Shown here piece by piece: positions 13,817 through 49,983 of a stretch of DNA of 59,637 nucleotides. The stretch lies in NCBI GenBank assembly GCA_004431415.1, contig QPMI01000112.1, positions 1-59,637 of the forward strand, given 5' to 3'. Below the pieces are notes generated by a model. It did not search any database and was not told the origin of the DNA. It was given only the letters and a program-made list of their open reading frames with translations. Position 1 is the stretch's first letter, and each line of letters begins with the position of its first letter. The stretch comes from Cyanophora paradoxa CCMP329 (lineage: Eukaryota; Plantae; Glaucophyta). A program made the translations under genes and the position numbers.

Positions 13817-14095
13817 ATGGAGTCAGCGCAGCGTCGCAAACCAGGGCGCAAACCGATTGCTCTTACGCCAGAGATTATTCAAGCAAGAAGGGAGAAGAAA
13901 GCAGAGTACCACCGCAGAAAATACAGCGAGGACCCTGCATATCGCCAGAGACACATTGAGCAGAGCAGCAGATATCAGGCTTCGCACAAAGATGCTCACA
14001 ACGAGGCAAACAAGCGCTATCGCACTCGGTTGATAAATCGAATCTCTGTACTTGAGAGTGCCCTAGCTTCCGCTGGAATCAGCGTCTCGGTCTAA
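13817..14095 (+). CDS. Small basic, probably DNA-binding protein
   Basis: RRKPGRKP...LTPE...RRKYSEDPAYR; similar to 47201..47596 (LTPEQ...RERYHSDPEFR). Confidence 0.55.
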   Translation: MESAQRRKPGRKPIALTPEIIQARREKKAEYHRRKYSEDPAYRQRHIEQSSRYQASHKDAHNEANKRYRTRLINRISVLESALASAGISVSV

Positions 14096-15296
14096 GTGTC
14101 CTCGTGTTGCTGGGCGCAGAATAAGAGGCCTTCGCATTTTCAAAAGACGTGTACCACCGAGCTGTCGAACCTCCTGGATTTAACGCCTTGGTTCCAGCAG
14201 TAAGCAGCTGCTTTTGAACCCGGAGAAGTCTCTTATTTTTTTCGATGTCTGACTTGTCCAGATTCTCTTGCATCAAATTCAGCTCCTGCTTTCGACGGCG
14301 AAGGGCATTCTGTGCAGCACTTCCAGCCCGCCGCTGCTCTGTCTCTGCTGGCACTTTCAGCAGCTGCTGGTAGCTCACCTCCTTGTCGTATCCAGCAAGC
14401 TTGAACTTGAGCAGAGGGCCAAATCCTCCTATAGCTTCAATCTGATAGACTTCTTTTGAGTACGTCGGCTTCGTTGATTTATCAAACGTGTTCCTCGCCA
14501 GCTTTACGCGCACAGAGTCTCCTACCTTGAACTCGGCCTCTTTCAGATAGTGCTGCTGCTCGTACGCCTCTCTCTGATAATCGTTTCTTGCAATAACAGG
14601 TGCTGGGTTCTTTGCTGCCTCATCAGGCGTAGTTTTAATAGCTCTATGCTCGGAGCTGTTATAGTTGCGCAGAAAGGATGGCAGCTTATCGATATATCGG
14701 TCGGTGTCGTACGCCTCCATGTATCTTGCAATGATCCGCTTCAGAGTACCATTAAAGCGCTCTACCTTTCCATTTGCCTGCGGACGATGCGCCTCGACAG
14801 CATTGTGCTTTATCCCCTCGGCTGCTAGCATAGTTGCAGCTGTAGCCTTGAATTCCTGATCCGTCTGAATGATATCGGGCTTCACCGGAAAGCTTGCTAT
14901 GAGCTGCCGCAGTGTCGAAAGCAGGGTCCCCTCGCTTTTATTTTTCATTGGGATGCTGTACGCTTTCCGGGTTACAACATCCACAGCGTTCATGATGAAG
15001 TGCACTCCGCGGTTGCTTCTAGCATAGGGACTGACATCGATCAAATCCACTTCATAATACTTCTCTGGGTGATTATACGTGATACTGGTGTACGGCTTCT
15101 CTTTCACCGGTTTTGCAAAGCGCTGAGCTGTGGACAGCTTCGCGAGCACTGCCTGCACCCTTGCCAGCGGCATCTTCAGCTTCTTAGCTATCCGTGCAGC
15201 TGACTGGAGCCCTGTCTCAGGATCATAGTAAGCATCAGAGATCGACAAAGTCAAGGTTGCCTTCTTGGCTGCCGCCTGTTGCTCGAACGTATTCAT
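14079..15296 (-). CDS. Retroviral-like (rve, DDE) integrase of Polinton type
   Basis: YYDP..G N-terminus; YEVDLID, IQTDQEF and NGKVERFNGTLK catalytic D-D-E; YNSSEHRAIKTTP; FKVGDSVRV SH3-like tail. Confidence 0.93.
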   Translation of the reverse strand: MNTFEQQAAAKKATLTLSISDAYYDPETGLQSAARIAKKLKMPLARVQAVLAKLSTAQRFAKPVKEKPYTSITYNHPEKYYEVDLIDVSPYARSNRGVHFIMNAVDVVTRKAYSIPMKNKSEGTLLSTLRQLIASFPVKPDIIQTDQEFKATAATMLAAEGIKHNAVEAHRPQANGKVERFNGTLKRIIARYMEAYDTDRYIDKLPSFLRNYNSSEHRAIKTTPDEAAKNPAPVIARNDYQREAYEQQHYLKEAEFKVGDSVRVKLARNTFDKSTKPTYSKEVYQIEAIGGFGPLLKFKLAGYDKEVSYQQLLKVPAETEQRRAGSAAQNALRRRKQELNLMQENLDKSDIEKNKRLLRVQKQLLTAGTKALNPGGSTARWYTSFENAKASYSAPSNTRTLRPRR

Positions 15297-18200
15297 GGGG
15301 AACCGTGCTGTAATATTCGTCAGGAATAATCTTTCGTTTCGTATACTCCGTTTTGTTGAGTATTCGGCTGAATGGAATCTGAATTATAGAGCTGAAGTCG
15401 ATCCCAGCATCGCGTTGCTTTCCATTGGGCTTGAAAACACGCGCTAGTTTAGAATCTAGTGTGCACTGCGGCTGATAACGTTCCTCTAGCATCCTTGTGA
15501 AGGCCTCCAAAGCAATTCGGTTATCAAGGGATTCCTTCTTTGCCACTGGATCACTCGGGAGCCAGTTCTCCTCTATCCAGCTCTTCGGAATTCCCTTTGC
15601 CCGCACATGCAGATCTGGTTCCCCATTCGACCTCACAAAGTAGCAGCAATAAACCTTTGGGCCAATGAAGTAAGCCTCAGTAATTCTCCCTTGGATGTCA
15701 TAATCTAGTTTCCCCAGCTCGCTCTCGCAGATCATTCTATTCCCTTCCTCCTCTGACATTCCCTCAACTGAATATGGCTGCTTCATGCAGTCCTTCAGAA
15801 GCTCAGCAAACCTCCTGTGCACGATCATAGAATCTGTATCTGTGTAGTATGGCATTGCCTCTACGTCCTTATATGAGTTCATCCTCACCAAAAATCGATC
15901 CATGATTTCGCGGCTGTAGGAGAGGATAAATGCACCAACAAAGCAAGGCTTCGAAACGCAGGCATCCCGCCTATACTCAGGGATCTCAAATGTGACGTAC
16001 ATTCTCGTATCATTCTCTATGTCAATGTCTGTAATCGTCGATGATCGCTGTATCTCCTTGAATCGTCTGTAGTTTGAGACCAGCTCGGTTGTCTCAATTA
16101 CTGGACGCTGAGCAAATTTTCCATAGAGCCCATTCAAGAGGATCTTCGCCGTAGCATACTGGGCGGTCCCCTTTCGTGAGCGTGCTTTCATGCAGTACAG
16201 CTTCTCAATGTAATCTTTGAACATTCGTTCCTTGCCCTCAAACAAGTACACCTCGTGCAGCTCTGTGATCTCAACTCCCAGTGCTATTGCCCGGTAGATA
16301 TCGACTGAGGTGTACATTTCTTTCTCAATAGGCTTCAAGTTAGACCATCCCAGATTGGCTTCGTGGCGGGGAAGGGGAGAGAGCACAAGATCCTGAGGAA
16401 TTTTAGCGCTAATCTTTGCAACAAACAGCTGTTCCATTTTCCTGCTCAGCATAAACTTGCGGAATCGCTCTAGCTCCGCTTGATCGGTGATGCATTTGAA
16501 TTTACCAGTGGGAAAGTAATTAAAGTACATAGCCGTCGGATAGAGAGAGACCACATCCAGATCTACCAAGTAATCATCTGGACCCTTCGAGACAAACTTC
16601 CGCTTGAATGGTAGGCATCGCCCTCCGTAAATCGCTTTGCGAAAAATCTGGTCCTCCTTGTATTTCGGTAGCAGCACTTCCGTTTTCATCAGCTGCCTGT
16701 GGATCTGAAAAGCCATCGCCGATGCTGTCAAGGTGCGCTTCGAATTCACATTGATCCCAAATAGATCAAAACATGTCCGAGCGTACTTAATATACAGCTC
16801 AGTCATCGACCGAACGTCAGCTCTCAAATATTCGCTCCAGGCTTCCTTGTGAATCTCAACGTCATCCCACGCTCTTATCTTTCGGTGGTCAAAATCCCCT
16901 TTCAAGGTGGTGCACCCGTAGTCCTTCCCAGCCTGCCGCAGTGAGCCCTGTATGTGCAAACAGGGGTCAAAGCTTTTAAACTCTCCCCCAGCCAGCGTCT
17001 TCCACTCCATGCTCTTGATCTTTCCGGATGAGCGCATCACCTTGACCTGGCAGTCTGGGCGGTTCTGGACAAGCCACTTATAGATAAATATCAAGTCGAA
17101 GCCGCTGCCATTGAAGAATACTAGAGTCGACTTTTCTTTCCAGTCGTCAAGCCAGAGCATAAACTGTTCCAGAGTTTCGGGGCCGCAGAACGATTTCGTT
17201 TCCGTGATCTCTCCTTTGCTAATTATGTCCATATCGACTGCGTACGGAACGTGGGTCGTGCGGTTGGGTGCAAACGTTTCAAAGTCTGCCGCTATGACTG
17301 AGTTTAGGGCTGTAAACTCTTCCTCGGGCTCGCATGGCTTGATTTTGCGTTCAATAACGCTCTTGTTCCTCACTGCTTCATCGCATTTGCTTGCATGGTC
17401 CTCCTTCGGATTGTAGGCGCAGCGGCAGGTATAGCAGAAGCGGCAGGTTTCCTTGTGAGTCGCCAAATCATACTGCATCTTTCCGCAGGCTCTGCACTTC
17501 TGCATCTCGCACGTTCTCTTATCTTTAATTAGAAAGCAGTGCGCATCGACCACGCAAAGGTGGGCTCGGCGTTCAAAGCCAAATTCAGTTGAAAATAGGA
17601 GCTTGAACTTCGACGCGCTGCGGTCCGAGACCCACTCGAAAATGCTTGCATCGATTCTATAGTGCTGGCTCAGCTTGCGTATGGTAGGTTCATCGACTAC
17701 AATTAGGCCCGTGGAAGCCCCAGCTGTGTGCGAATTGAACTGTAATCAACATGCTGAAGCTTCTTATATACTCTCTCAAGGTTCAGGCGACCGGGATTGA
17801 GCTTCTCATGCTCAAAGCATTCAAGCACGCAGTTGTCCTCTGGAGAGATCGGACAGTAGATCTTGTTCATCGTTAGAGCCTTCCCTCCAAAGGGCAGCTT
17901 AGGTACATTTCCCAGAGCCCCTGCTGCGTTTTCTGCGATAAGCACCTCGATCTGCACGACTGGCCAGACATCAGTGTCCTCGTAGGGCTGCTGCGCTAGC
18001 ATCCAACTCTCCATCTTCTCCGCGAGATTTGCTAGAAGTGACTGCATCGTGCCCTCCTCTATGGTCGCAAGCTGCGTGCGGTACATGTGGAAATTCTCAA
18101 AATGAAAGCGAATTAAAACAGCAGCTCCAATCCTCTCTGGGATTCGCAGCTCATTCAGAAACGCTATCGTCAATTCTTTCACTCTCTCTGGATCAGCTGT

Positions 18201-18608
18201 CGGCTCTATCTCTATAATGTCCTTCGTGAAAAGCAGCCCTGGATACTCGTGGTGAGTATAGGTGCGAACTACGTTAACGTTGGCCGATGCCTGCTCGCGG
18301 AATAGCCCTGATATAGCTTCCGCAACTTCATCAATCTCCTGTGTTGCTGCTGCTCGCGCAGCCTGCGCCCTCTCAAAATGAGCGGCAACGTCTCGCCCGT
18401 ACAGCGGACGCTGAGGCCTTTCTGTCCCCTGCAGCCTGAGCAGTGATGCTAGAGAGGATCGGAGTGTGTCAGTGTGGGTCCTGGTGTTTGAAAGAGGCCG
18501 CAGTAGCGAGTTCCTATACGTTGCATTAATGTAGCCTCGCTCATACAGCCTCTGTGCAAGCTCGTTGATTTCGGTTCTAAGGCTAGCTCTTACGGCTCGG
18601 GAGCTCAT
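15235..18608 (-). CDS. Protein-primed family B DNA polymerase with N-terminal terminal-protein/OTU-like region (one frameshift at ~17705)
   Basis: Exo I ADFET, Exo II FFNGSGFD, Exo III YLRADV; Pol A DVVSLYP, B KILLNGLYGKF, C YTDTDS. The frame of ORF 15235..17553 stays open upstream to ~17705, where it abuts ORF 17703..18608 (EDNCVLECF...HLCVVDAHC). Confidence 0.93.
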
Positions 18609-19038
18609 GTTTCGATTAATGATACAATCAGAAAACTTTTTCGAAATTCAGCGCGCACAATCTCTGATTGATAACTATCATCGCGTTTTCTTTAAGGGGT
18701 GTAAATAAAAACGTTCCGATGGCTAGGACAAGCCTGCACTGTGACTCTGGCTTGGAAAGGATAGAGTGAGATAGCTCTCGAGTGCGCTCGATTTCTTGCT
18801 CTCGCCAAGTCAAGAGATCGCTGGACAAAGTTCTCACTTCCAGCCAATCGCAGCTCGAGGATCCTTTGCATCTGCTCGGAACTCGGCCTGTGATTGGCTA
18901 GAGCCAAAGTGTCTTGACGTTTCGCGAAGTCCAGCTATCGACCTTATTTTTTATAGAGCTCGATGGCTCCGGCTGCAGGTTCGAAGTCGAAAAAAAAGCG
19001 GCTCCAAGCCAAAGAAGTCCTTTGATTATCCAACTCTA

Positions 19039-19566
19039 TTAATTTAGAGATTCTGGGAAATTAAGTCGTAGAAACATTCTGTCTGTCTCATTTACATTTT
19101 GAATAGCAAACAGATCACGAGCTTTAGCGGCTTCTTCTGCACTAGAGAAATACCCAATGTGTTTGTTGTGTCCATTTATTTGGAAACAAGCTCGCCATTT
19201 ATTCACAGACTTGTAATAGCTCACTCCTACAAATCCACTTGAATTATTCTTTTGAAGCACATGATTTAGTTGTTGCTGCTGATTTGTAGCCAGGCGGAGA
19301 TTCTCACGCCTGTTATCCAGTTTATTACAATTTATGTGATCAATAGAGAACCCTGGATTGACCGATCCTACGATCAACTGGTGCATTGTTGTTTTTGTTT
19401 TCTTTCCATTTACAAAGATATGACATTGAGCATAACCATTTCTAAGATTCCAACGTTTCCCATTAATTAGTTCAGCATCAGCTGCTGATATGAAAGACTG
19501 TGCTACTATTCCATTTCGCCCATAAATTGGAATTGCAATCGCTCCATTGGGAATTTCGATCTCCAT
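19039..19566 (-). CDS. HNH endonuclease with AP2 domain (copy 2)
   Basis: TMHQLI...IDHINCNKLDNRRENLR and NNSSGFVGVS...KWRA...HIGYFSSAEEAAKARD; paralog of 12774..13343. Confidence 0.9.
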   Translation of the reverse strand: MEIEIPNGAIAIPIYGRNGIVAQSFISAADAELINGKRWNLRNGYAQCHIFVNGKKTKTTMHQLIVGSVNPGFSIDHINCNKLDNRRENLRLATNQQQQLNHVLQKNNSSGFVGVSYYKSVNKWRACFQINGHNKHIGYFSSAEEAAKARDLFAIQNVNETDRMFLRLNFPESLN

Positions 19567-19611
19567 CTGTTTAGCCTTCCTGTGCCTTGTTATTCTATAC
19601 ATTCGTGATAT

Positions 19612-20504: not shown

Positions 20505-21641
20505 GGCACGCGGCACGTGACCGCTGACCTCATGCCAAGTCAATTCTCAGAGCTGTTATTACTGAGCGGAGGAGGAGGACGATGACGATGAGTAGTTCGA
20601 GTGTGCTCTCGTAGCTATACATCTGCGTATACGTATCCGTATTTATATACGTATACATCTTCCTGCACAAACGTACTACGATATCTGGCACAGTGGCGGA
20701 CGGGGTGAGGGAATTTCTAGTGCGGCGTCAGCCAAGATGGCCTCTCAGTGGACACTAGAATGCCTAAGCTCATACCCTAAAGTGAATTCCCAATCAGCCT
20801 CAAAGGCTCTCCCGTTAGCTACCTCCTCGAAGCTAAATCGAATTTTATTTTTCAACCCCTAAGGTACCCACGCACACGCCCTCCGGCACGTAATAGCAGA
20901 GGGAAACGTGTAAAACGATTTTGGTACACGCACGGCAAAATCAGATCGATCTAGTGAGGGGAAGACGCTAAATACCCATGGAACCGCGGCCCGGAGCGAA
21001 GCGAAGTGGCCGTAAGCGGGGTCCATGGGTGTACAACAAACGCAAGCTTCAGCGCGTTATATGTACAAACTTAAGCTTCATTCAGCGCAAATGTAGAGTT
21101 GAGCCACTAACTTAGTACTTCCCGAATCCGTCTCTAATTTATATTTACCGCACCTCGCAGGCCTCGGTCGCGGTGGCGAAGTCCCCCATGAGGGCGAGGA
21201 GGAGCGGGTAGAAGAGGTGCGCGTCCGTCGGCAGGTTCACCTGACCCCTTGGGCGTGAGCGAGAGAACGGGGGACGCCGCGTAATATATAACTAACGTGA
21301 GCGTGAGCGTAATATAACTAACTAGCTGGCGCCGCCGTCATCCCACATCGCATGCCCCCGGTGCGATAGAAGCGAGGGATTTAGATTAGATCCCGTTAGG
21401 ATAGAGGCGAGGGATAGATAGATCGAGGTAAAAAAGGCGGGTTCACCTGACCCCGGTGCGACCGCCACTTGTCCGGCTCGAGCGAGAGCGCCCTGGCGAG
21501 GAAGAGGCGAGGGATTATAAGGAGCTTAAGAAAGAAAGAAGCTTCTATCAAAGAAGCTCAAGAAGCTTCTATCAAAGAAGCTTTAGATCCGGCTCGAGCG
21601 AGAGCGCCCTGGCCCGGCCCGCGGCCCGCGCCGTCGGCCAC

Positions 21642-21717
21642 GAATTTTTCGGGATCGAACGAATTTTTCGGGATCGAACGAATTTTTCGGGATCGAACGA
21701 ATTTTTCGGGATCGAAC
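21642..21717. repeat. Four tandem 19-bp units GAATTTTTCGGGATCGAAC; variants dispersed to ~24.9 kb
   Basis: Exact 19-nt period. The core GTTCGATCCCG(AA) recurs at ~21995, 22267, 22287, 22434, 22472, 22841-22910 and 24890-24925. Confidence 0.85.
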
Positions 21718-21856
21718 GCAGATGCTGGCCGCGGCCCGCGCCGTCGGCAACGAGCACGCAAGCAACGCCTCGGTGCGGGCCGCGTCGGGTCCGGGTCCGT
21801 TCGCGTTATATGAAACTTAAGAAGCTTCAGTGTAAATGTAGAGTTGAGCTAGTAAC

Positions 21857-24800
21857 TTAGTACTTTCCGAATCCGTCTCTAATTCCTTTGACGCACCGCT
21901 GGTAGAGGTGCGACGCCTCGACGAACTGCCCGTGAGACGCCTTCCGGATCGCCGCCTGGTTCAGCACAATCTGGCGGTCGATCGCGAAAAGTTCGTTCGA
22001 TCCCGAAGCGCGCAACGGATCGGGTTCGAACCACGCGGGCGTTGTTGTCGTCGAGTTGCTCGGCCAGGTCGTGCTGCCACGCCGCGCTCGCCTTTGCCAG
22101 ACCCTTGAACCCCAGCACTGCCCGGGCCGTGGCTGGATTACATTGCTGAATTCTAAAGCGTGCAGATTTGTCGAAGAGCCGCGCGCACGGGAGAGGTACG
22201 TGGAGAAGACGCCGCGGATACGCACGTCCGCGACGGACAGCATCTGCGTTCGAACCCGAAAAATTCGTTCGATCCCGAAAACTTTGTTCGATCCCGAAAG
22301 CTTCGAGGGCGGGGCGGACCTGCTTCGGGGTGCGGATCGAGAGCTCGCACCCGCTGACGAGGGCGTGCGCCGCGCGGCCCAGGGCGCCCTTCGCGTGGAC
22401 TCCCGTGAGCACCGTGACCCTGCGCAAGGTTCGTTCGATCCCGAAAAGTTCGTTCACACCCGAAAATTTTCGTTCGATCCCGAACTAGTACTCGCTATGC
22501 GGATCGCACCACAGGATCAGGACGTAGGATTCGACGAGGGCCGAGCGCGCGTCGCGGTTCTCGGGGCGCAGGTAGAGGCTCGAGCTCGAGCTGCCCAGAG
22601 GCGGGCGCGCCCCCCCGACTTTGAGCGCGATGCGGAGCGTAAGGAAGAGCGTCTCTGCGGGCCGGGCGCGTGCATATGCTCGGACGGGGCGAGGCGCCAG
22701 CGAAGAGAACATGAACTGTAAATTAAATGTGCGGACTGAGGATGTAGAGCGGCGAGCTGAACTTCTCGGGCGCGGGCAGGCGCTCGCCGAGCGTCTCGAT
22801 GCACGCAGCCTGCGGCGGGCTCGTGATCAGTCCGCCGTTCGTTCGATCCCGAACGTTTGTTCGGTCGATCTCGAACGTTCGGTCGATCCCGAACGTTCGG
22901 TCGATCCCGACGCACGGCGAGTTCGACGGCGACGAGAGGGCGGCCGAAGCGATACCTGCGCCCGCGGTCGAGCGTGAGCTCGAGCTCCGCCTCGAGCCGC
23001 GGCGGGCGGCCGCGGTGGGATCTTGGTCCGGACGCACTCGATGAGGCCCCAGATCTGCAGGGAGACAGCGCGGGCGACGCGCCAGCGGTGGCGCTCGGTG
23101 CCCGTGAGCAGCGGGGGCTCGGAGTGGACCATCTCGAGCGGGGGCGGGGCCAGGGCGGCGAGGCTGGCGGGCAGGGGCGGCACGGAGGGGCCCGCGAGGC
23201 GAAGGGCGTCCACCGTCGCTACAAGCGTCGAGTACCTGTGGCGCGCGACGAAGTCAGTCGGACTCTGACAACGCAGACAGACTCTGACAACGAGATCTAG
23301 ACAGACTCCGACGACGCGGACAGACTCTGACAACGCGGACAGACTCTGACAACGCAGACAGACCCAATGCAGATCTAGACAGATCTAGAGCGCTGCGTAG
23401 ACTCTAGACAACGCAGACAGACTCCGGCAATGCAGATCTAGACAGATCTAGAGCGCTGCGTAGACTCTGACAACGCAGACAGACAGACTCGCGCACATGC
23501 GGACGCTCTCCGGTAGGGCGTTGTTGCGGAGCGCCTGCTGCGCCGCCCGCTCCAAGTGCCCGAGCGCCCTGCCGCGCGCGCGCGCGCGCGCGCCCCGTCG
23601 GGCCGAGCGGCATAGAGCGCGCTGCGGCTGCTCGCGGGCGCACCGGAGGGCTTCCCCGGCGAGGCGCCAGTGGCGAGAGAGGATCGCGGGATCCGAGTCG
23701 GGGCGCACTTCCTGCGCGGCGGTACCTTAATAAGCTTAGGCTTAATACAATCTTAAGCTTAATATAAGGCGCGCAGCCGCTCAATATGAGCTTAAGCTTC
23801 TTCTCTTGCGTTGTATGTGGAGGGCGGCGGATCCGATCCGATGCGGACGGCCCTCGCGCTTCTTAAGCTTCCTAATGATCTTCTCTCTCGTTAAATTTAG
23901 AGGGCGGCGGATCCGGATCCGATGCGGACGGACCTCGAGCCACCGGGCGACGCGGGCGTGGATCGCGCGGCGGGCCTCGCGGGGCAGCGCGCCGTACACG
24001 GCGTCCCGCGCCAGCGAGTGCACGAACGCGAACGGCGCGCCCGCGCGCGGCTTGGGCGATGCCGACTGCCCGCCGAGGGCCGAGGGCCGAGGCCGAGGCC
24101 ACGGACTGCCTGGGCCCGCTGAGCGCCCCCGGACGGCCTTCGCCGGCCGCCGCCGCCTCGTCGTCGTCGTCGTCGGCCAACGCGTTCGATTCGCACGCTC
24201 GCTCCTGCGAAACGCTCCCGCGTTACCGTCGAGCGCCCGAGGGGCCATGGCCACGGTCGATCCCGAAATTAAAGTAAAGTTGTTGCGTGCAGTGTGAGGA
24301 CCCGGGATGATTCGGGGAATCACTAGCCTCTCGCGAGATGGCCTATTGGTAGAACTGCCGCCTTGACACCCCTTAGTCGTTGGTTCGACTCCGGCTGGGT
24401 CCGGGTCGCAACGCGTCCATAACATGGGGGCTGCTAACGGACCTGGTTCGACTCCCGACGAGGGATAGACCGGGCTTCGAATCCCACGCGGGGCGCTAGG
24501 AAGCGCTGGCTGAGGGCCGCTGCATCGCGGTACCCCGATAAGCCCGGCACCTGCATCGGTGGCCGCCGAAGAGCCTAGAAACTGCGCGCACGGAAAAAAG
24601 CGGCAGTTGCGGCTGTGTGAAGTGGGTGTCACGTGCGGCATGTGACCGAGGTTGAGATCGCGAGTTGTGAGGTGAAATGCAGCAATGGAACCGCACGGAA
24701 GGATCTCGGGGTCGAGATCACCGTGGCGGGGGGGATGTTGCGTGCAGTGTGAGGACCCGGGATGATTCGGGGAATCACTAGCCTCTCGCGAGATGGCCTA

Positions 24801-31326: not shown

Positions 31327-32544
31327 CGATGAGCCCCCGACGTCTCCGGCAGCTAACACTGCAGCTGTGTCCGGAGCTCCAGCGCTTGGAAGCTAAAGCG
31401 TCTACAATCGCGACCTGGACGGAGCGAGCAGGCGCGGTATTCTCACGGATGCTGATGCCGGCGATTCTCTCGAGCTCGGCCAGCGCTTCCTTGCCGGCGA
31501 TGCTGAGTACTGTGGTACGGTGTGGGCCGTGTGGCGCTGCTACGTATACGCTGGAGGCGCGCGGGCGCCGGGCGTTCACCCCCGCGGGCCGCGCCGCGTG
31601 CTGCGCGTCGGGCCGCGCTGCGCGCGTGTACATGTTGCGCGTCCGACGGTCATGGCCAGCATCACTGCATCAGATTGAAGCTTTTGGGCAATCGCGAGTC
31701 GCGACGGCGCCGGCGCGGCAGCGGTGCAGTGGCCCAGTACGTGGTGCGGCACTGGTGCCACGGTGTGCGGCGTGGGCCGCGCCGGGGCCGCGTGGCGCGC
31801 CGGCGCCGGCGCCCGCGCGGGCCGCGCCGCGCCGGCGCTTTTGCGCAAGCGCGCCGGCGCTTTTGCGCATGAAGGTTTGGGGGTACACCCCAAGAAGAGC
31901 CGGCCTATCGGCGACGACTTGCGCAATTGCAACGAACGCGAGTGGCTTGCTAAAAACACTACTCGCGAATCGCGAATTGGCCGGCGTGATCGCCGACCGA
32001 GTCGCGCCGCGCGCGCACATATGCATATGCATGTGCGGCGATTCTAGAGTCTAGACTAGTAGCAGTGCGACTCCTGCGAGACTGGAACGTTTAACAGTCT
32101 GGAAGGGCACTTGTACTCGAGCCTCAATGCATGGCCATTGAGAAATAAGTCTTAAAGATAAGATTTTTTTTTTTGGTGAATTACCGGCCACAGTCTCTAG
32201 ACACCAGCACTGCGGGGGCTGCCCAGGGGGCATAAAGACAAAAAAGCAAAATAACTAAGACAAGAGCACGAAGAAAGATAAGACAAAGAGCCAAAATCGA
32301 CAATAAAAAAGGAAAGACACAGAGCTCGAGACAGATCGATAGCGAGAAGAGACGATAAATCGAGCAGATCTAGGGACAGAGGATAACTGACACGAAGAAG
32401 AGCCAGAGCTAGAGATACCATCAATATCAGAAGGAATTACATCACTAAGAAGCGGGGGACAAAATTGAGAAAGATAAATAACAGGAAGAAGACAAGTAAG
32501 AGGAACAACAAGACGACATGGAGGCGGAGGCGAAGCAGGACGAT

Positions 32545-34447: not shown

Positions 34448-34957
34448 GAGCTCGAGCAGAATCCGGCCTTCCAAGGATTGGGACCGGAAATTAAAGGAGC
34501 CTCGGAGAGGCTCTTGAGCTTATATAATTAGCTATCGATATATCATAGTATTAGGTCCGACGGTCCGCCGGCCGGCGCCGCGCCGCGGGGCCGTGCACGT
34601 GCACCGTGTGACGGTGCACGTGTCCGACGGTCCGGCCTCTCCGGGACTCCGGGATCCGTACGCGTCTTGCAAGCTTAAGTTGCGGTACATTGTAAACTTC
34701 GCTCGCGCTCATGATCACGTGCACGCGCAAGGCTAGGGCGGGCCATGGCCATGGGTGATCTAGAATCCGATGATCTAGACTCAGACTCTGAGATCCAGGG
34801 CACCGGGAGCAACCGTCGGATGCAATGAAAAACATGATCGATATCGACTCGGCGATCGCGATATATATCATAGAATCGCCGAGTCGGTAGAAGACGGCGC
34901 CGGCGGCCGGGCGGTGGAGCTCCGAGGTCACTAGTAAAAGAGGGGCCGCCGGAGCTC

Positions 34958-35222
34958 GAGCCTGTTTCGGCCTGATTTAAATCAGGATTTAATTAAATCA
35001 GGCGGAGACTCTGAGACAGGCTTGGCGAAACAGGCTCAGCCTTACTAAGTTATTTCGGAGGACTGAGCCTGATTTGAAACAACTGCAGGCTGAAAAAGGC
35101 TTGATGAATCAGGCTGAGTGAGGCTTAAATCAGGCTCGCGATCGAGTCAGGCTTCGATCAGGCTTGAACATCAGGCTTGCAATTGAATCAGGCTTATATC
35201 AGGCTGAACCATGGCCAGGCTT
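34958..35222. repeat. Array of (T)CAGGC(T)/GCCTG motifs in both orientations
   Basis: More than 15 copies of caggc/gcctg, e.g. aatcaggct, gatcaggct, catcaggct, tatcaggct. Confidence 0.7.
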
Positions 35223-38200
35223 AAGCTTGCTACCCCCGCCCCGCCCCCAGCGCCGCGCCAGCACACATATATATAAGCATCGGAACTTGCATTGCACACA
35301 CGAGAAGCAATGTTCTAGATCTATAGTTACATCTATAAGCGCACCACGCTAAATCTAGAAAGAAGATTACGCGGGGACGTCGACGGGGGGCGGGTACGAG
35401 GCGATCGCGAGGGAAGTGGGGATGGAGCGGGGGGCGCGGGCGATCCGGAGGGAGCTAGCCGGGCAATGTAATTAATTATACTCGATGATACCGAGCTCCC
35501 ATATATGCAGCTTTATATATATGATTTAGCTTTATATATAGCTGCATGCGTTTCTCCCCTTAGCTAGGCTTCGACCCCCGCCGCCGATTCTCTAGATCTC
35601 CCCTCCATGCATGGCCAGCATTAATATTTTTACCAGCGGGGATGCGAATTAAGAAGCGCGGCTTCATCGGGCCGATCGCCCTCCTGTCGACATCGGCGGT
35701 CCTGCTCGCGATCATGAACAGCTTCGAATTCATCTAGATCTAGATCTAGCGATCCGCGGCGCGAATTTCGCGAATTTTCTCGCGGACGGCGCGTGGCGCG
35801 AAAATCGCGGAGAATCGGCAGGTCCGCGTGTATGGCGTGCGCATGCAGGGGAACGGAAAAGCAGGCTTAAGTGCGAGCCGCTTACGACATGTCAGATGGA
35901 ACGACGAATCAGCCAGACTGAGCCGCCGGCGACGCCGACGGCATCAAGCTCCCAATTGCAACCAGGTGCCGCAGCTCCCAGCGGCAAATTCGAAACAGGG
36001 GAAACGCCGACATCGTCAAACTCGACACCAGTTGCAGGTCTCAAATTCGCTGGGCGAAGCCATCGCCAATTACAGTATAATGACCAGAGCTAGCGCAGTC
36101 GATGCCGATGTCGACCCCGGGGCGTATCCATCCACGTCTCCGCCGCGCGTCGAAAAACGGAACAAAAAGAAGCTCGCACAAGCAAAGGTACGCTCGAAAC
36201 CGACGGCGCGCATGCGCAGCGCCGGCTGCGTCTGGACTATGACCTCTCTTAAGTCGCGGGCGCTGGAACTGATGGCGCGGTCGGAGTGGGGTCCCGCGGA
36301 GCGGCAGCTTTTCCGTGCTCTGCGGGTGCGCCACATTATATCAATATTCCGCTTTAATTTCCGCCTTCAAGGCTTGTTTATAATTAACGGTCTTGAATCG
36401 ACGTTTCCTTCTTCATTATATCGCGCCACGTGCACATTATATCAACATTAATATTTCGCTCTCCGCCTTGTTCAACGGCCCTGGATATTTTAAGACGTTT
36501 CCGTTGACGTCGTGCAGCGAGACGACGCGGACGCGGAAGCTCGCATAGCCCTCGCGGAGTGTCACTTTCGGCTGTCGTACTTCGAAGGGGCCCTGTTCCG
36601 GAGCCCGGCCGTCCTCCGCCTCGGCCTGCTCCCTGCTGGCGACGAGCGTCTGGAACGGTTCGATTTCAGATCCCTTGCAATTGGCGTCTCGCGATCGCTC
36701 GGCCTGCATTGAGCGTTTTAATTCCCTGCAGCGTCCAGAGGCTGCTTTTTGAGTCAAGACGAGGCATGGAAGAGGAAGCCAATGCATCAAGCTTAATTAT
36801 CAATGATGAGATCCTTTCAGGCGAGTTGAATTTAGCTGAAACTCGAGGTTGCTACGCTTGACTTCCGCTGATCATCGGATTGCCAGACCACAGATCTAGA
36901 AATTCAAAAGAGGCATTTGCAGCTGGTCTCTGCGAAAGACCAGCTGCAGCTCCTGTCCGTTGTACGGGTGCTTTCGATTTGCAGCCACTATTTCTGGGAA
37001 CTGGTGCGGCAGGGGTGATTCCTAGCCAAATCCGGCGCCGAGCTAGTCTGAGACGTTCCGGCTACGTAGCCTATTGGATAGGATTCTCGCCTTTCGTGAC
37101 ATCGCCCTCTCTGCAGCTGGACGCCTTCTATATATACTATAATAAGTGGTTAGAATTCGAACCAACTCTAAATTCAATTTCGCAGCGCGACCCCGCCGAC
37201 GTGGAGGCCTTCGTGGCCCTCGCGGATCGCCTCTTTTGGCTCTCGAATCGAAGTTCGGCGCGGCTCGGGAGGCGTGCGCATGCGCGGCCGCCCTCCGTCT
37301 GCTCCCCGGAGCCCCCGCCGGGGATACCCTGCTGGAAATGTGCGCGCATATATATCTCAGATGATAGGACCAGCTAAAGGTGCTTCGAAATTCGGTCCCT
37401 GACTAAGCTTAGCTTAAGGCATTATACGCTTAAGCCTAACCCTAAGCTTAAGACCCTGCTGGAACTTGCGCACGCAGGACTAGGTTCCTATCTCAGAGGA
37501 TATCTCATATCGATATCTCAGTGGATAGGACTAGCTGTATCTCAGAGGATAGGACTAGCTGTAGGCGCCTCGGCCCGTGACTAAGCTAAAGGCATCTTCC
37601 ACAGAATCCGGGCGCTGCTCCGCAAAATCGACAAGGCCAGCATGCGCAAGAATTCGGAAGGCTCGTCCTCTTCCCTTGATCCCCTTCCCTTGATCGATAT
37701 CGCTCGCGATCGACATTCGAATTCCGGTCGTCGGTCGGTTTGCAGTGAACCTCGCAGTTAAAACCCCGCATCGCATTAATAGACCTCATCGATAATCAAA
37801 GCAATTTACGATCGATTCCTTACCAATGCCCGATAGGAATCGTAAATTGCTCACTTTTCATCAACCCTCGATCAAAAACCATGACCCCCTACCTATGCCT
37901 CTCATATATATCTATCGACTTTATTGATAAATCACATTTTCTCTCTTTACCCATGACCCCCTCCCTGTGGTTTTACTGTAAAAATAATGTAAAAAGGAGA
38001 GATTGTATTACGGTATCATCGAATCACATATGACTCGAATAAAAGAATACTCTGTTATATAATTACGCAACAGAAAGCGTATTTAGTATAGTAGGCGAAT
38101 AGCTATATGCAGTACAGTAGATCTAAGCGAAAACGATTAGCTAGCAACTAAGCGCCGGCTATGTAATGCAGGCTATATATATGTATATAAATGCGATATC

Positions 38201-41095: not shown

Positions 41096-41464
41096 CTAGT
41101 AACGTGAGCTACTACTAAATTGCGACTTGCTTCGTTCCGACTTGACGAGCCACGCCCCCACTTGTACTTTATCGTAGGTCAGTGTTAATGGGTTATCAAT
41201 ACCCGATACGAACCATAGCTTATGATCAGGATCCCACTTGGCTCCACCCTTCTTAGCCTCCTCGCGATCCTCGAACGGGATTTTCAAATAAATTTTTTTA
41301 TTTTTGCGCATTAATTCCGAAACGGCCACGGTACTATAGGTAGATAGAAGCTTATGTTCCGGCTCAGTTACATACCAGCATTTATGCTTCATATCCCATT
41401 TAGCCCCAAGGGCTTTAGCTTCATCTTTTTGTTCAAAAGGGACCTCAATATAGATTTTCTCCAT
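41096..41464 (-). CDS. Tandem DUF5710-like domain protein
   Basis: IYIEVPFEQKDEAKALGAKWD...WYV and IYLKIPFEDREEAKKGGAKWD...WFV. Confidence 0.75.
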   Translation of the reverse strand: MEKIYIEVPFEQKDEAKALGAKWDMKHKCWYVTEPEHKLLSTYSTVAVSELMRKNKKIYLKIPFEDREEAKKGGAKWDPDHKLWFVSGIDNPLTLTYDKVQVGAWLVKSERSKSQFSSSSRY

Positions 41465-41490
41465 TTCCTACTATACGAATATATAAAATT

Positions 41491-42708
41491 TTACCTGGTT
41501 CGGATCCTAGTACTAGCCCTTATAGCTGGAGCCTTATCATAGGATGCTACAGCCTCTGCCCCACCGGCTAATTTCTCGGTTCCGGCTACTCTTAGATTCG
41601 CTAGCTCCCTTGAAACCCTCTTCGTTCTCTGGACCCTATCCTCGATCAAGCTGCCTTTTGGCACTGATTCCGCCGGATCTATGCCCTCTCTGTGGATCTG
41701 TCTAATTGCTGCGGCCTCCTGCCTCACTGTATCCACTGTACTTGCGGAAGGCTCAACGATTGCTTCAACTTCCGATATGATCTGCAGCTCATGAGGCTTG
41801 AAGATTCGATTCAAAGGAACACCCTGGGCATCTACGACCTGGATTCCATTCCCGGCCCTTCCTGCGATCTTGTAGACCTCTCGACTGTATCTCTGAGTGG
41901 CCCCCTTGTCAAACTTAGATCTAGGCAGCAAGACTCGAACGAACAGGCCGGGCTTGAATTTCTCGAATATATCATCAACAATTGCTTTCTTTTTCGATAA
42001 AATGAAACTGCGAATGCGAGCCATATCCTCTAACCTAACATCTATTGGTCGCATACCTATAGTCCTATTAACACTGGAATTATAATTCAGAACAAAGTCC
42101 TCTAGCTTATCCATAAACTTGACTGTGTTGAAAGCGATGCAGTAGTTATTGATCATCGTTTTGAGGGTCAAATGGAATCGATTCATGATGCCTAAACTCG
42201 TGTGATCCCCAGCCTGTTTAAACCTATGCTCGATTCCAAACTCCTGGATCACTGCCTGGAACTCTTTCGCTTTAAACTCGGAACCCAAATCAGTCTCTAA
42301 CACCCTCATTGGAGCGGGAAGCTCACCCAATACCTCTCTAAATGCAGTCGCAACACTGACTCCCTCTTTATTCTTTAATTTCTTAGCGTAAGCCCTCCTG
42401 CTCGTGATCTCAATAAGAGTGAGTACCGCAATGTACCCCGCATTGTACTTTCCGTAAGATAAATAGAATATCAGATCGGCCTGGTAGGTCCAGGGTGGAG
42501 CTGTGATTGGAATGAATGTGGACTGCGATGCTGGGGGTGGCTTCTTGTTAATCTGCATAAACTCTTGCTTTTCTGCAACCTCTTTGACCTCGTTATAAGT
42601 AACACTCGGATCCTCTTTCTTCAGCTCCTGATAGATCGTATGGGGATGCTTGTAACCTGTTTTAGGATCGTACATTCGCCTAACTATTTTATTCGAAGCC
42701 GGACTCAC
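41491..42708 (-). CDS. rve/DDE-family integrase (third catalytic position appears to be Asn)
   Basis: MYDPKTG, YQADLI, LETDLGSEF, LGIMNRFHLTLK, YNSSVNRTIGMRP, FKPGLFVRV. Confidence 0.88.
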   Translation of the reverse strand: MSPASNKIVRRMYDPKTGYKHPHTIYQELKKEDPSVTYNEVKEVAEKQEFMQINKKPPPASQSTFIPITAPPWTYQADLIFYLSYGKYNAGYIAVLTLIEITSRRAYAKKLKNKEGVSVATAFREVLGELPAPMRVLETDLGSEFKAKEFQAVIQEFGIEHRFKQAGDHTSLGIMNRFHLTLKTMINNYCIAFNTVKFMDKLEDFVLNYNSSVNRTIGMRPIDVRLEDMARIRSFILSKKKAIVDDIFEKFKPGLFVRVLLPRSKFDKGATQRYSREVYKIAGRAGNGIQVVDAQGVPLNRIFKPHELQIISEVEAIVEPSASTVDTVRQEAAAIRQIHREGIDPAESVPKGSLIEDRVQRTKRVSRELANLRVAGTEKLAGGAEAVASYDKAPAIRASTRIRTR

Positions 42709-42875
42709 GGTTTTAAAAGGGACATCCCTACTACATTTACCTTTGCTTCTCTTTTACTAATTCTGCCTTCTACTCTCTCTGTATCTGGGATCGGAATGGG
42801 GAGCAGGGTCGTTTCGGTCTCATCCCCAGCCCCTCGCCTCACTATTTTCGATGCCATCCTATAACTATACAAATT

Positions 42876-45800
42876 CTATTTTTTGCTGCTGTTGCATCCT
42901 TGATGAGCCAGCTTGCAGTTCGACTTGATGTGAGCCTCTTTATTATTAATCCTATCAACAGTAAGCCTGTACCTTAGATCCTTTGCCTGAAGGGAAAGGG
43001 GTTCGGTACACAGAGAGCAGATTCGCTTCTGCTCCTTGAGCTGCTCAATGATCCACTCGGGTGTAATATAATCATCATCATTATAATCTCGACCCGCTTT
43101 CTGATCCTGGCACTTGTAAGCCCGAACCTTGGCCTTCAGATGCTCGAAGATCTCGGATTTAGCCTCGAACTTGTGGAGCTTGGTGTAAATGAGAATCTCG
43201 CTCAAATCTCGGTTGCGAGTCAGAGCAGTCCAGAACCACTCAGGAGTAACATGGCAGAACGAGGCCTCACAAACGACAATGCCCGAATCGTAGGTGAGTC
43301 CTTGAACACTGTGGCATGTTCCAGCATAGGGTAGGTTGAACTTTTCCAACAGAGCAGTGGGGAGAGAGAACTGGGTCCCATCAAACACATCCTCCAAAGT
43401 GACCTGGTTCCGATTGATATCGACTATGGTATAACTGTAATTAGTGAAAGCCGCTACTTTCTCATCTTTTTTACCTCGGGTCACACAGATATATTCACGA
43501 CAAACGATTTCGATTCCTTTGAAAAAATTGATTCCGTTCACAAGGATCCCCTCGGTTTCGGGGTATATACGTTTATGCATGGTTCGGTTGTACAGGTAAG
43601 CCATCTCGTTTCTATAGCATATAGCCCTGTAGGAATCAGGAATTTCGTTTAGATCAGTTGCAGTTCTGAATCCGTATTTATTTACTATTTCTGTAGGAGC
43701 AAGTCCGTTCTCAAAGAGATCGACCTTGATTGCTTTCAGCTTCTCTCGATCCTCAGGCTTGCGATGCCTCTTGTTGATCATCAGCTGCAGTGTGTTGGGG
43801 AAGATGCTTGAGATAGCATCGCTGTAATATTGTTTGGGGTCAGCCACAGCAAGAGCATCATTTATGGGAGCGTTTTGGTGGGGGTCTCCATTGCAGTAGA
43901 ATTTCTTATCCGAATACTTGTTTATGAATTTTTTGATCTTTGCAAGGTCCTTTACTTTATAGGCATAGACCTCATCGAATACTACATGGGAAAAGCCTTC
44001 CATAAACTCATTGACCTGTGAAGCCGATAGGGCCTCTTCACAGGTTTGCTCATTTGAGACTCGCAGACCCAGAACACTGTACAGGGTGGCCACCTCAATG
44101 CGGCTTGCAGCTTCGGGCTTCCCAATCTGATGCCATTTCTTTCAGAGAGCATCGGAACTCGGCCGCTTGTTTGTTGTAGGGGCAAACTATGAGTCCGTTG
44201 ATGTCATTTTTTAGCAGGTAGACCATCAATCCGGTCGACTTTCCGGCTCCTGGAAGCATTCCAAGGGTATTGACATGATTGAACTCATTGTAAACCTTGG
44301 TATAAGCGTCCGAATCAAATTCGTTTCGAAGGCAGAAGGAATTGATATTCGAAAGGGGATCCTCAATTTTAATAGGCTTCGGGAGGGTCCGAATGCGAAT
44401 GGGGTTCATTGGGGCTTCTTGTTCGGAATATAGGAGAAGCGACCAATGTTGGCAAAGCTATTACGATCAAAGGGCTTTGAGCTATACCTTCCTTTGATAT
44501 ACAGGCAATCAGTGTGGATTCCCACGACCTCGTAACCTTTGCTTTTGAGTTCCTTGTACTTGTCATACATTTCGCTGCGAACTCGATCGTACATTGCGAA
44601 CTGGATCGGAAGGAACCCGTTAATGAGATCCTTTTGAGAATCAGTTCTCACATAATAGATGTGGCCATCGAAATCCGAAAGGTTCTTGACCAGAGTATCA
44701 GTTTTCGCACCAAAGGTGAATACTTCCACCATTCCGCCCACCTGCTGGGCATAGATATCAGCCTCGGACTTTTTGCAGAACAACCTGGTCTTGGATCGCT
44801 TATCGAGTCGCTTTCCTAGCAGACCAATCACTTCTACGAGAGTAGCCTTTTTCTCGCGAGGATTCAGGTCGCTTGACATTATTTTCTGGATCAGCCTTTT
44901 TGAGGGGTTGCTTACGAAAAATGATGGGCGGTTGTAGCCTGTAATAGTCACGAGATCCTTGATGTCCTCCCAGTGACGCTTCAGAGTGTACCCTGTGATC
45001 AAGTTCGAGTAGGATGCAGCCTTATAACGATCGAGCAGGATCTGAATTCCTGGATCGCAGATGCGGGATTTGTATCCTACTGGCTCATCATCAATATCCT
45101 CTTCGTATGTATCCACTCCTTGCATGTAGGTTCCAGTATCGAACTGCTGCACATCAATCACATAGAAGGTATCCTCCTCGATTGGGTGACCATCATAGGG
45201 GCGGATACCATCGAAAATATTGAATACTGGAAGCTTCTCGATCTTGCTAATAACAGCTGGGTAGCATTTGCACATATCCACTGCAGTGTATTTAGTTCCT
45301 GGCTTCGGCTTAATGAAATAGCCATTCAGAGCAGAGCGATTGTAATTAATAAGGGCTGTTCGGAAGCCCTCCTCGTACTGTGAAATTGTGTCGGTGTTAA
45401 TCAGGGCTTCCTTGAATTCTTGACGAATGGATTGGACCTTTTTGTAGTAAGCCTCAGTCTCGAACTCACACTGTACCATGTGATCAGAAACCGAGGGATT
45501 AAATACGGAAAAGAATATTCCACTCGCTTTGAAGATCAGGGTTTTGATCTGTCCCCCTTTCATTCCGAGCTTTGGTTCGTATTGAAGGCGATCCAAGAAA
45601 GTGAACAGAAGCTCATCCATGGACCCAGTGTAAACGATTCGGACTGTAGCTTTCTCCTTATCAGCTTTCAATCCCATGGTCGCAATCTTGAGCAGATCAG
45701 CAGGTGTGTGGGCGAACATATCGTATTGTTTGGTCTCTGTGATTTGATAGGATGAGTTCAGCGAAGCTTCGGTTGGGTTTTCGGTTTCCAGGTCCATTTT

Positions 45801-47009
45801 CTTGAAATTCTTCTCGAGGGCTTTGATGTTATCGTTGTAGCAGTAAACGTGGTTATTGTGTACCATGAAATTCATGCATTGCGGATGCAGATCCTTATTA
45901 ACGGGCATCTCTCCCTGTGGGTATCTGTACTTGAGCTTGTTATCCTCCGAATAAACACGGAATCCCAGCCTGCAACGATCCGCGAATTTTCGGAGCTGCC
46001 TCAGAGTGAGGGACATAGAGGCTCCTCAGTATATTCCTTTCCGTGGAAAAATCGATACAGACCCTCGTAGGTCATCTCAATGTCCTTGTACTTCCTGTTT
46101 CTGTGACAAGCTTCCATTGAACGAGAGTACAATGAGATCAGCATATCGTAGACACAGGCATTCGATTTTCCGGAAGCAGGCTTGATGATTAATTCCTCGA
46201 TCGATTTCGCCTCGGGATTGAGATCGTAATTAATGTACTGGCTCACAGCTGCGGTACATCGCATCGATTCTTCGAGTTCCTCATCGAGAAATTCTTCTTG
46301 AACGGCTTCCTGGGCTTCCTCCTCAGCCTGAGCCTCCACCAGAACGATTTCGTGAATTTCCGCAAATAATCGTACCAATGCTGAATTTCGCTTGCAAGTC
46401 GATCAGCCCTAAATACGGTCTCAACAACATACAGGAAATCAGCGACCATATAGTGTCTCTGGTTCAGCACGAACCTTGTAACGAAACCATCACGGGCAAT
46501 TTGTCGCAGCATCCTTACCGGAATTGTGATCGAAGCCCTTTTTAGGGGTCGGTACATGCGACCTTCAAAGCGGAGTGGCTGATCCCTCGCACGACCAGTG
46601 GGTTCAGCATTAATTTCGGCCCAGAGCTTGAAAGTGACCGGACAACAGCATCGTCGGGAAACTGGGCAATCTGCCGGAAAATTGATTCAGCTGCCTGTTC
46701 TCTCGGGTCTCGGAGGTTCAGCCTCAATGGCCCCAATGCGACCGACCTCTCGATCAAATGCAGCCTGGCGAACCCCAGCAGCGATTGCAGGGTATATCCC
46801 TTTGCAGGTCGCTCTGTATCGAAAATTGACTGAATGTTCTTGAGGTACAGCTCGAGCATGGTTTCGGGAACCTTGGAAGTTCCTGAGAATTTGCGCAATA
46901 ATGCATCAGCGGTTCTCTTGGTGAGCAGGCTCCGCTGGATACCGAGGTTAATCAATTCGACCGCTTTCGCTTTCAAGGTTTTTCTTCTCTTGTAACTTGC
47001 GCGAGGCAT
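42876..47009 (-). CDS. PolB-like domain fused to superfamily 1 helicase and C-terminal HNH-like domain (several frameshifts)
   Basis: Colinear ORFs 46542..47009, 46243..46557, 46001..46378, 44406..46016, 44095..44409 and 42876..44093. Pol-like AVDMCKCYP, KKATLVEVIGLLGK, GIHTDCL; helicase GMLPGAGKS, VVFDEV, GDPHQNAP, TCHSVQGLT, WTALTR; tail CSLC...TVDRINNKEAHIKSNC...CN. Confidence 0.8.
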
Positions 47010-49933: not shown

Positions 49934-49983
49934 GTTTTCACTATAAAAACGAGAGAAAAATAAGACTGACTCTGGTCATCAGT

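What the first reader, a model, noticed from the sequence alone, without database searches (positions are those of the whole stretch)
14079..47009. Sister viruses with the same capsid module but alternative replication engines
Seen: element 1 has a complete pPolB with exonuclease motifs. Element 2 has a PolB-like domain with no recognisable exonuclease motifs and altered motifs (DMCKCYP, KxxxxxxxGLLGK, HTDC), fused to an SF1 helicase and an HNH-like tail. Both are followed by the integrase, but the block is inverted relative to MCP. Their extreme N-termini look homologous (EL...R...LLR...TERP). Established: SF1 helicase fused to a derived pPolB is known from some Polintons, PLVs, Tlr1 elements and transpovirons. 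Having both states in related neighbours is a snapshot of that transition. Element 2 may depend on a host, helper or element-1 polymerase.
Basis: partly seen in the sequence, partly recalled or inferred. Interest (0 to 1): 0.75.

Follow-up and report, generated by a model that had tools for sequence, protein, structure and literature searches.

The report
Algal proviruses with swapped replication cassettes
Two virus-like DNA elements sitting 16 kb apart in what is likely an algal genome share a distantly related capsid gene block but carry different DNA-copying enzymes, likely because such viruses exchange their polymerase-plus-integrase cassette, a pattern already reported for this virus group.

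Summary
The observation mostly holds. E1 (to 21038) and E2 (from about 37007) are Polinton-like proviruses with seven shared genes in the same order. Their capsid proteins are only about 34% identical, so they are cousins, not near-twins. E1 has a full pPolB. E2 has a vOTU-palm-SF1 helicase-HNH fusion. Four short-read assemblies show that the breaks between its palm and helicase are assembly errors. The pol-integrase block is inverted, and the N-terminal similarity is weak but real.

E2's enzyme belongs to a widespread known family (472 hits) with no significant similarity to E1's enzyme beyond the leader, so this looks like module exchange, not a snapshot of the transition. Its motif A Asp, motif B Lys and motif C Asp are kept, so it is likely active. 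Contig depth steps at the cassette edges (E1 about 10x against 20x or more at most capsid sites; E2 6x against 4x) hint at reassortment within this genome.

Related capsids paired with different replicases are in print, and this scan noted the pattern twice on other DNA of this genome. New member of a known kind.

The parts
6408..7982 (+). E1 patatin-like phospholipase (virion-associated, inferred)
   Evidence: PF01734 E=2e-25; homolog in E2
7974..9875 (.). E1 pair of divergently transcribed candidate minor capsid genes (7974-8891 -, 8874-9875 +)
   Evidence: weak matches to the E2 pair and, for the + gene, to ORFs of capsid-bearing loci; function inferred
10006..11393 (+). E1 major capsid protein, double jelly-roll type; one assembly break at 10413
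   Evidence: 462 aa with X; 60% to P0151; Atlas Capsid_N/Capsid_NCLDV clusters at 0.98; low-confidence model of P0151 matches MCPs
11456..12184 (+). E1 A32-like packaging ATPase
   Evidence: PF04665 E=9e-10
12774..13343 (-). E1 HNH-AP2 endonuclease 1 (capsid side of the cassette)
   Evidence: HNH_3 E=1.5e-9, AP2
13817..14095 (+). E1 small basic protein, homolog of E2 47201-47596
   Evidence: 35% over 54 aa, E=4e-7 pairwise
14079..15296 (-). E1 RVE integrase
   Evidence: rve_3/rve
15235..18608 (-). E1 complete pPolB (leader, likely TP and vOTU, exonuclease, palm); one assembly break at 17707
   Evidence: PF03175 E=1e-56; phi29 E=5e-6
19039..19602 (-). E1 HNH-AP2 endonuclease 2 (end side of the cassette)
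   Evidence: HNH_3 E=1.7e-10
20739..21038 (.). E1 right tip, candidate terminal repeat, ending in CA
   Evidence: contig depth 11.5-16.6x flank, dropping to about 1x beyond it; other end lies outside the window
21039..37006 (.). Host spacer, GC 63% against 45% in both elements
   Evidence: no Pfam hit in the 4 spacer ORFs tested
37007..37981 (.). E2 left tip, candidate terminal repeat
   Evidence: depth about 8x flank in the 37335-38001 bin; boundary approximate
41096..41464 (-). E2 DUF5710 tandem-domain protein; the cassette depth step lies inside it
   Evidence: PF18974 E=9e-31; contig starts at 41154
41491..42675 (-). E2 RVE integrase
   Evidence: rve E=3e-10
42876..47009 (-). E2 pPolB-S1H fusion: leader (aa 8-70), variable N-region, vOTU (His389; Cys287 inferred), exonuclease-like remnant, palm (D580, K723, D836), SF1 helicase (Walker A at 922), HNH-like tail
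47201..47596 (-). E2 small basic protein
49082..49975 (-). E2 packaging ATPase (in pieces in this assembly)
   Evidence: 35% to E1; Pox_A32 weak
49941..51324 (-). E2 major capsid protein (in pieces in this assembly)
   Evidence: 34% to E1; contigs show single-base gaps across the region
51368..54566 (.). E2 candidate minor capsid pair and patatin, syntenic with E1

Best explanation
E1 and E2 are integrated, multi-copy Polinton-like viruses with homologous capsid blocks and different polymerase-plus-integrase cassettes, and the difference likely arose by cassette exchange between virus lineages rather than by E2's enzyme evolving from E1's.

Shown: gene content and order, one-ORF fusion, family membership, depth steps. 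Inferred mechanism: each element would replicate from protein-primed ends. In E1 a proofreading pPolB would do this. In E2 a vOTU-processed palm without proofreading would do it, with the fused SF1 helicase unwinding ahead. The RVE integrase would insert the linear genome. Polymerase and integrase would both act on the genome ends, so they would travel together. Recombination between co-resident copies, possibly started by the HNH nucleases that flank or are fused to the cassette, would re-pair cassettes with capsid blocks in either orientation. A homologous promoter word and a roughly 65-residue leader precede both enzymes.
For: Synteny of seven genes at 28-38% identity where measurable, with no polymerase match. 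E2's enzyme belongs to a family of 472 representatives; 120 of 120 full-length listed ones have the helicase and 107 of 120 the tail. In 27 of 36 related loci with at least 900 nt downstream (not dereplicated), an RVE gene follows on the same strand. None of 77 loci holds an E1/E2-type MCP; they hold other capsids, such as PF21738 in L005. The two integrases are no closer to each other than to environmental ones, and are not sisters in the best tree. Depth relative to the flank in three runs: E1 cassette 7.9-10.2x, right arm 3.1-3.3x, six sampled capsid-block sites mostly 17-48x; E2 cassette 6.0-6.6x, capsid block 3.6-4.3x, left arm 3.1-3.4x. Catalytic residues conserved; model matches phi29 polymerase at Z 15.9, rmsd 4.8, 354 aligned. 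Literature: replicases associate unstably with capsids and stably with integrases; tandem homologous capsid modules with different replicases.
Against: The AU test does not reject E1+E2 integrases as one clade (p=0.177), so the integrase may not have moved. Depth is summed over contigs, is not a copy number, assumes a single-copy flank, and is noisy in the E1 capsid block (one sampled site gave 9.7x, another 103x). The runs may be one strain. No second copy was read directly, as no genome is held. No significant repeat brackets either cassette. No outgroup capsids were found, so capsid sisterhood could not be treed. Polymerase activity is not measured.
Confidence: 0.7

Rival explanations
1. 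Only the catalytic part of the polymerase gene was replaced, in frame behind a shared promoter and leader, while the integrase descended vertically; the inversion is a separate event.
For: Leader homology. A family profile built without E2 scores E1's leader 11-12 bits, reached by 0 of 500 shuffles. The word CTTAA[AG] lies 88 and 84 nt upstream of the two polymerase starts (post hoc). Depth is about 7x in E2's leader against 5.6-5.9x at 46363. AU p=0.177. Unreviewed note e1-10643325 reports such a swap elsewhere in this genome (a lead only).
Against: The leader also occurs in at least 24 of 120 environmental relatives, so it need not mark a local junction. Integrase identity (28%) is below that of the capsid genes. 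Pol-S1H and RVE are linked in 27 of 36 outside loci.
Confidence: 0.2
2. One reading: E2's fusion arose from an E1-like pPolB in this lineage by exonuclease loss and helicase gain, so the pair is a snapshot of the transition.
For: Shared capsid ancestry, shared leader and shared Pol-integrase order. An exonuclease-like remnant persists in E2.
Against: No significant similarity between the enzymes beyond the leader, while E2 matches hundreds of environmental fusions at 24-34% that sit beside unrelated capsids.
Confidence: 0.05
3. E2's palm is catalytically dead and E2 borrows a host, giant-virus or E1 polymerase, using its helicase as an initiator. This rival is independent of how the cassette arrived.
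For: First Asp of motif C is replaced (His834). The motif B Asn, kept in 90 of 99 relatives, is Val in E2. The 2016 paper read such domains as inactive.
Against: Motif A Asp in 98 of 99, motif B Lys in 99 of 99, motif C Asp in 99 of 99 across proteins about 25% identical. Nine of 99 relatives also lack the Asn. The gene is open and invariant in contigs at about 6x depth. The 2024 paper notes that active PolBs lack the same Asp.
Confidence: 0.2
4. Assembly artefact: the fusion or the pairing of cassette and capsid is a chimera of an error-prone assembly.
For: 106 indel rows in the E2 stretch; no listed contig spans cassette and capsid block.
Against: One contig bridges integrase, helicase and palm (41154-46066) with 0 substitutions and 5 single-base gaps in two runs. 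Cover is continuous in 30 of 30 bins in all four runs.
Confidence: 0.03

Closest known systems
pPolB-S1H fusions (Tlr1-like helicases) of PLVs, Tlr1 and transpovirons; PMC5499653 (abstract, section 8 read), bioRxiv 10.1101/2024.03.18.585575 (parts 1-4 of 5 read)
   Same: vOTU, protein-primed palm lacking the first motif C Asp, C-terminal SF1 helicase, HNH tail, 1000-1400 aa; RVE partner as in Tlr1
   Different: E2's model keeps an exonuclease-like domain without acidic motifs, where the 2024 paper says the domain is lacking (the 2016 paper guessed at such a remnant); motif B Asn is Val
Mosaic polisuviruses with replicase turnover; bioRxiv 10.64898/2026.10.13.758929 (parts 1-4 of 5 read)
   Same: Neighbouring elements with homologous, syntenic capsid modules and different replicases; PolB linked to DDE integrase; endonucleases near replicases
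   Different: Their named tandem example pairs PolA with AEP at 70-78% nucleotide identity; here pPolB against pPolB-S1H, 34% protein identity, 16 kb of host DNA between, opposite strands
Glaucophyte PLVs tabulated in PMC12220804 (passages; Table S6 rows)
   Same: Among 156 elements: 49 with PF03175, 34 with SF1 helicase Pfams, 85 with rve, 139 with A32, 89 with lipases, 0 with a protease (columns counted by me)
   Different: Counts only; I saw no analysis of cassette exchange. Whether these two copies are in that set was not checked
Polintons (Polintoviricetes) and NCLDV-like PLV groups Zora/VC218/Zephyr; bioRxiv 10.64898/2026.06.19.733378 (passages, section 6 read)
   Same: E1 has pPolB, RVE, A32 ATPase and a DJR capsid; replication switches within one MCP group are called common there
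   Different: No protease found in the part seen; the MCP has one database relative and its group is unresolved

Membership tests
pPolB-S1H fusion (E2) | Protein-primed type PolB palm | tested here: met
   Model pLDDT 87; phi29 top in Foldseek E=9e-9 and VIA Z 15.9, rmsd 4.8, 354 aligned, against at most 8.5 for RNA-primed PolBs. TPR1/TPR2 not inspected separately
pPolB-S1H fusion (E2) | Motifs A and B kept, motif C lacking first Asp | tested here: met
   motif B Asn is Val in E2
pPolB-S1H fusion (E2) | vOTU Cys/His dyad upstream of the palm | tested here: met
   His in 99 of 99; an upstream Cys column at least 90% conserved; E2's Cys287 assigned by position; no OTU fold match obtained
pPolB-S1H fusion (E2) | C-terminal SF1 helicase in the same ORF | tested here: met
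pPolB-S1H fusion (E2) | No exonuclease activity motifs | tested here: met
   No E2 acidic residue at the three columns with D/E in at least half of rows; fold remnant present
pPolB-S1H fusion (E2) | C-terminal homing-endonuclease domain | tested here: inconclusive
   Tail aligns in 107 of 120 relatives; Pfam HNH only below cut-off in 2 of 7 relatives scanned, none in E2
pPolB-S1H fusion (E2) | Polymerase activity | not testable with these tools
   needs an assay
Polinton (E1) | Complete pPolB plus RVE integrase plus A32 ATPase | tested here: met
Polinton (E1) | Double jelly-roll MCP | tested here: met
   Atlas 0.98 to capsid clusters; Foldseek MCP hits to 9e-11 with a pLDDT 41 model of paralog P0151; weak evidence each
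Polinton (E1) | MCP of the Maverick/Polinton clade | tested here: inconclusive
   No Pfam hit for E1 MCP pieces or P0151; fold hits mix NCLDV, adintovirus and virophage capsids
Polinton (E1) | Ulp1/adenain maturation protease | tested here: inconclusive
   None among 48 window ORFs scanned; both elements run off the window
Polinton (E1) | Terminal inverted repeats and target-site duplication | not testable with these tools
   Only one end of each element is in the window; no genome held
Transpoviron (E2) | pPolB-S1H without a capsid module | tested here: not met
   E2 carries MCP, ATPase and candidate minor capsids
NCLDV-like PLVs (Zora, VC218, Zephyr) | NCLDV-related MCP/ATPase; Mriya48 or HUH genes | tested here: inconclusive
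   Atlas clusters are mostly Nucleocytoviricota but recognition is low (1773); group profiles not available; Mriya48 not tested

The most novel reading that the evidence does not exclude
The polymerase-integrase cassette is a semi-autonomous, transpoviron-like unit that moves among co-resident proviruses inside one host nucleus. A conserved promoter word and N-terminal helical leader act as a plug that lets a proofreading pPolB or a helicase-fused palm with a dead exonuclease fold run the same capsid lineage, one that has no sampled free-living relative.
Probability: 0.25. Interest if true: 0.6.

Novelty: new member of a known kind. Interest (0 to 1): 0.3.

Why it matters
Replicase turnover in small eukaryotic DNA viruses is mostly inferred from trees. 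A cultured alga with invariant multi-copy cassettes on varied capsid backgrounds would let the exchange be mapped copy by copy. E2's intact gene is also a ready substrate for an open question: are pPolB-S1H palms active (read as inactive in 2016, predicted active in 2024)? The pattern itself is already in print, so the gain is a test system, not a new kind.

Tried and rejected
Alternative genetic codes: dropping stop codons did not give one long ORF; reads explain the breaks instead.

Word-indexed protein search for the E2 palm at longer lengths: 0 of 7420 candidates, a false blank overturned. Scans of viral contigs with the E2 palm, E1 MCP, E1 pPolB and the MCP alignment, and of metagenome contigs with the MCP alignment, confirmed no locus. 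The MCP search gave 1 hit and the ATPase search 1 hit, so no MCP or ATPase tree was built. PDB sequence search with the MCP profile: 0. Exact look-up of 10 window proteins: 0 of 10.

First X read-through with the eight listed places alone failed (51 stops); a ninth, unlisted place is needed. Sequence tests for an exonuclease remnant were negative: 55 of 300 shuffles reach E1's score; only the structural superposition supports it. TP- and vOTU-region similarity between E1 and E2 was at chance (297 and 763 of 1000 shuffles). No stand-alone exonuclease or OTU chain appeared in the wide fold search; the domain was not folded alone. The FastTree of 100 palms leaves E2 without a supported sister. 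Repeats bracketing the cassettes were at chance level, including the 21-nt pair 40949/47863. No RNA holder was listed. Look-ups of earlier findings by sequence and nearby gave nothing.

Literature searches. I saw no paper describing this pair, but bioRxiv supplements were not seen and may list these elements.

Full report
Setting. The window holds two elements of 45% GC separated by 16 kb of 63% GC DNA. No genome is held. Twenty listed runs of one coded organism hold 88-90% of the sampled words of E2. The only database relative of E1's MCP, P0151 at 60%, is labelled Cyanophora paradoxa by its source. Unreviewed notes on the same genome name that alga too. A glaucophyte host is therefore likely, but inferred.

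Assembly quality. Four short-read contig sets laid on 36001-56000 give 106 indel rows, of which 12 are shown; 9001-22000 gives 10. The 11 single-base places I used all touch runs of 2-4 equal bases. The broken genes thus mostly reflect an unpolished assembly, not decay. One contig spans 41154-46066 with 0 substitutions and 5 gaps in runs X1 and X5. With X at the four gaps inside the gene, 46063-42876 gives 1064 codons and no internal stop. The full 1380-aa reading needs four more listed places and one unlisted place somewhere in 46542-46719, so the N-terminal frame is partly inferred. E1's pPolB opens with one X to 1124 aa and its MCP to 462 aa.

Capsid block. Patatin, two candidate minor capsids, MCP, ATPase, an unknown gene and a small basic gene occur in the same order and relative orientation in both elements. 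Identities are 38% (patatin), 34% (MCP), 35% (ATPase), and weak for the rest. There is no nucleotide match. The MCP call rests on Atlas capsid clusters at 0.98 with low recognition and on Foldseek hits from a pLDDT 41 model of P0151. E1 and E2 are closer to each other than to any capsid in 77 fetched loci, but P0151 is much closer to E1. 'Cousins' fits better than 'sisters', and no capsid tree could be built.

E2 enzyme. HMMER over 1.84 billion representatives gave 472 hits at E<=0.001, 150 listed. All 120 of those with at least 1150 aa match E2's helicase region, and 107 match its tail. In a 100-row alignment the motif A Asp (98 of 99), motif B Lys (99), motif C Asp (99) and vOTU His (99) are conserved; E2 has Val where 90 have the motif B Asn. 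The model of the 536-aa window piece (pLDDT 87) matches phi29 polymerase best: Z 15.9, rmsd 4.8, 354 aligned, model 96-536 on chain 5-500. That range includes phi29's exonuclease region (domain limits recalled). Some archaeal PolB alignments that start at model 98-99 gain about 60-110 residues over palm-only ones. An exonuclease-like fold without catalytic motifs is therefore likely kept, though a sequence test did not detect it. This is the pPolB-S1H family. The 2016 paper read it as inactive and guessed the unannotated region might derive from the exonuclease (PMC5499653 section 8). The 2024 paper predicts activity.

Transition or exchange. Beyond the leader the two enzymes show no significant similarity. 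Outside this genome the E2-type gene is followed by an RVE gene in 27 of 36 loci with enough downstream DNA (64 of 77 loci held the gene at E<=1e-10; not dereplicated). It sits beside at least two other capsid types: PF21738 in L005 and an unclassified candidate MCP family in L041, L062 and L063, weakly linked to L001 (not tested by fold). In a 23-row integrase tree E1 and E2 are not sisters (unstarred branches), but holding them together is not rejected (p-AU 0.177). The fusion is old and mobile; whether the integrase moved with it here is likely but unproven.

Depth steps. Relative to the 36001-37036 flank in runs X1, X5 and X7, E1's cassette (13440-18697) stands at 7.9-10.2x on invariant contigs. 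Its right arm stands at 3.1-3.3x and its capsid block mostly at 17-48x at six sampled sites (range 9.7-103x), with many 90-99% variants. E2's cassette (41154-46066) stands at 6.0-6.6x, its capsid block at 3.6-4.3x and its left arm at 3.1-3.4x. The tool warns that such depth is no copy number, and short overlapping contigs inflate the E1 capsid figure. Still, the steps fall at module edges in all three runs, as expected if cassettes, arms and capsid blocks reassort.

Leader. A profile from 17-21 relatives without E2 scores E1's leader 11-12 bits, with 0 of 500 shuffles as high, and finds 24 of 120 relatives. The leader is real but widespread. The word CTTAA[AG] lies within 120 nt upstream of 6 of 10 replication-side genes, including both polymerases at 88 and 84 nt, and 1 of 7 capsid-side genes, against a 2.6% background. 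The word was picked from these same regions, so this is not an independent test.

What is known. Barth et al. report replicases unstable with capsids and stable with integrases, tandem homologous capsid modules with different replicases, and possible replicase mobility. Bellas and Sommaruga call replication switches common in all PLV groups. Table S6 of PMC12220804 already counts pPolB, SF1 and SF3 replicases among 156 glaucophyte PLVs. PMC13215967, PMC10120064 and PMC12721341 were seen as passages only. Two unreviewed notes of this scan describe the same pattern on other DNA of this genome, with near-identical capsids; I could not check them.

Verdict. A real, cleanly supported example of a known kind of mosaicism. 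The capsid lineage is poorly sampled and the exonuclease remnant is a small addition. Interest 0.3.

Noticed in passing
window 5978-6037 and 9882-9942: A 52-nt perfect inverted repeat (60 of 61 when extended) brackets the patatin and minor-capsid block. Contigs join 9927 to 11452 on opposite strands at depth 898 in X1, so some copies seem to have a rearranged capsid block.
   Followed up: partly
window 46436-46603: Variant contigs at about 2x depth go back 168 nt here, a length that keeps the frame, in 3 of 4 runs; about 90%-identical variants cover 46.4-47.0 kb while the core is invariant.
   Followed up: partly
window 12774-13343 and 19039-19602: Two HNH-AP2 genes in direct orientation flank E1's cassette, 70-77% identical over two short DNA stretches; possible exchange points or homing nucleases.
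   Followed up: partly
window 13817-14095, 47201-47596, 39570-39653: Small basic proteins with a KPGRxP-like string (AT-hook-like; label recalled) on the capsid side of both cassettes, and a weak third match in E2's arm.
   Followed up: partly
upstream of 13343, 13817, 18608, 19602, 47009, 47596: Shared promoter-like word CTTAA[AG] before replication-side genes of both elements (post hoc).
   Followed up: partly
window 20275-20504 and 39836-40526: A 136-nt-spaced duplication in E1's arm (skipped in one X3 contig) and three AT-rich repeats about 290-310 nt apart in E2's arm; candidate origin or end-binding sites.
   Followed up: no
window 21640-22910: Clusters of an 18-19-nt repeat in opposing orientations in the spacer just beyond E1's end; origin unknown.
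   Followed up: no
window 24884-26020 (-): Spacer ORF pieces resemble the AAA domain of eukaryotic adenylate-cyclase-like proteins (recalled resemblance; no Pfam hit); probably a spliced host gene.
   Followed up: partly
L001 693-12322: An 18-kb viral contig with ATPase, candidate capsids, pPolB-S1H and RVE all on one strand, the same layout as E2 with an unrelated capsid.
   Followed up: partly
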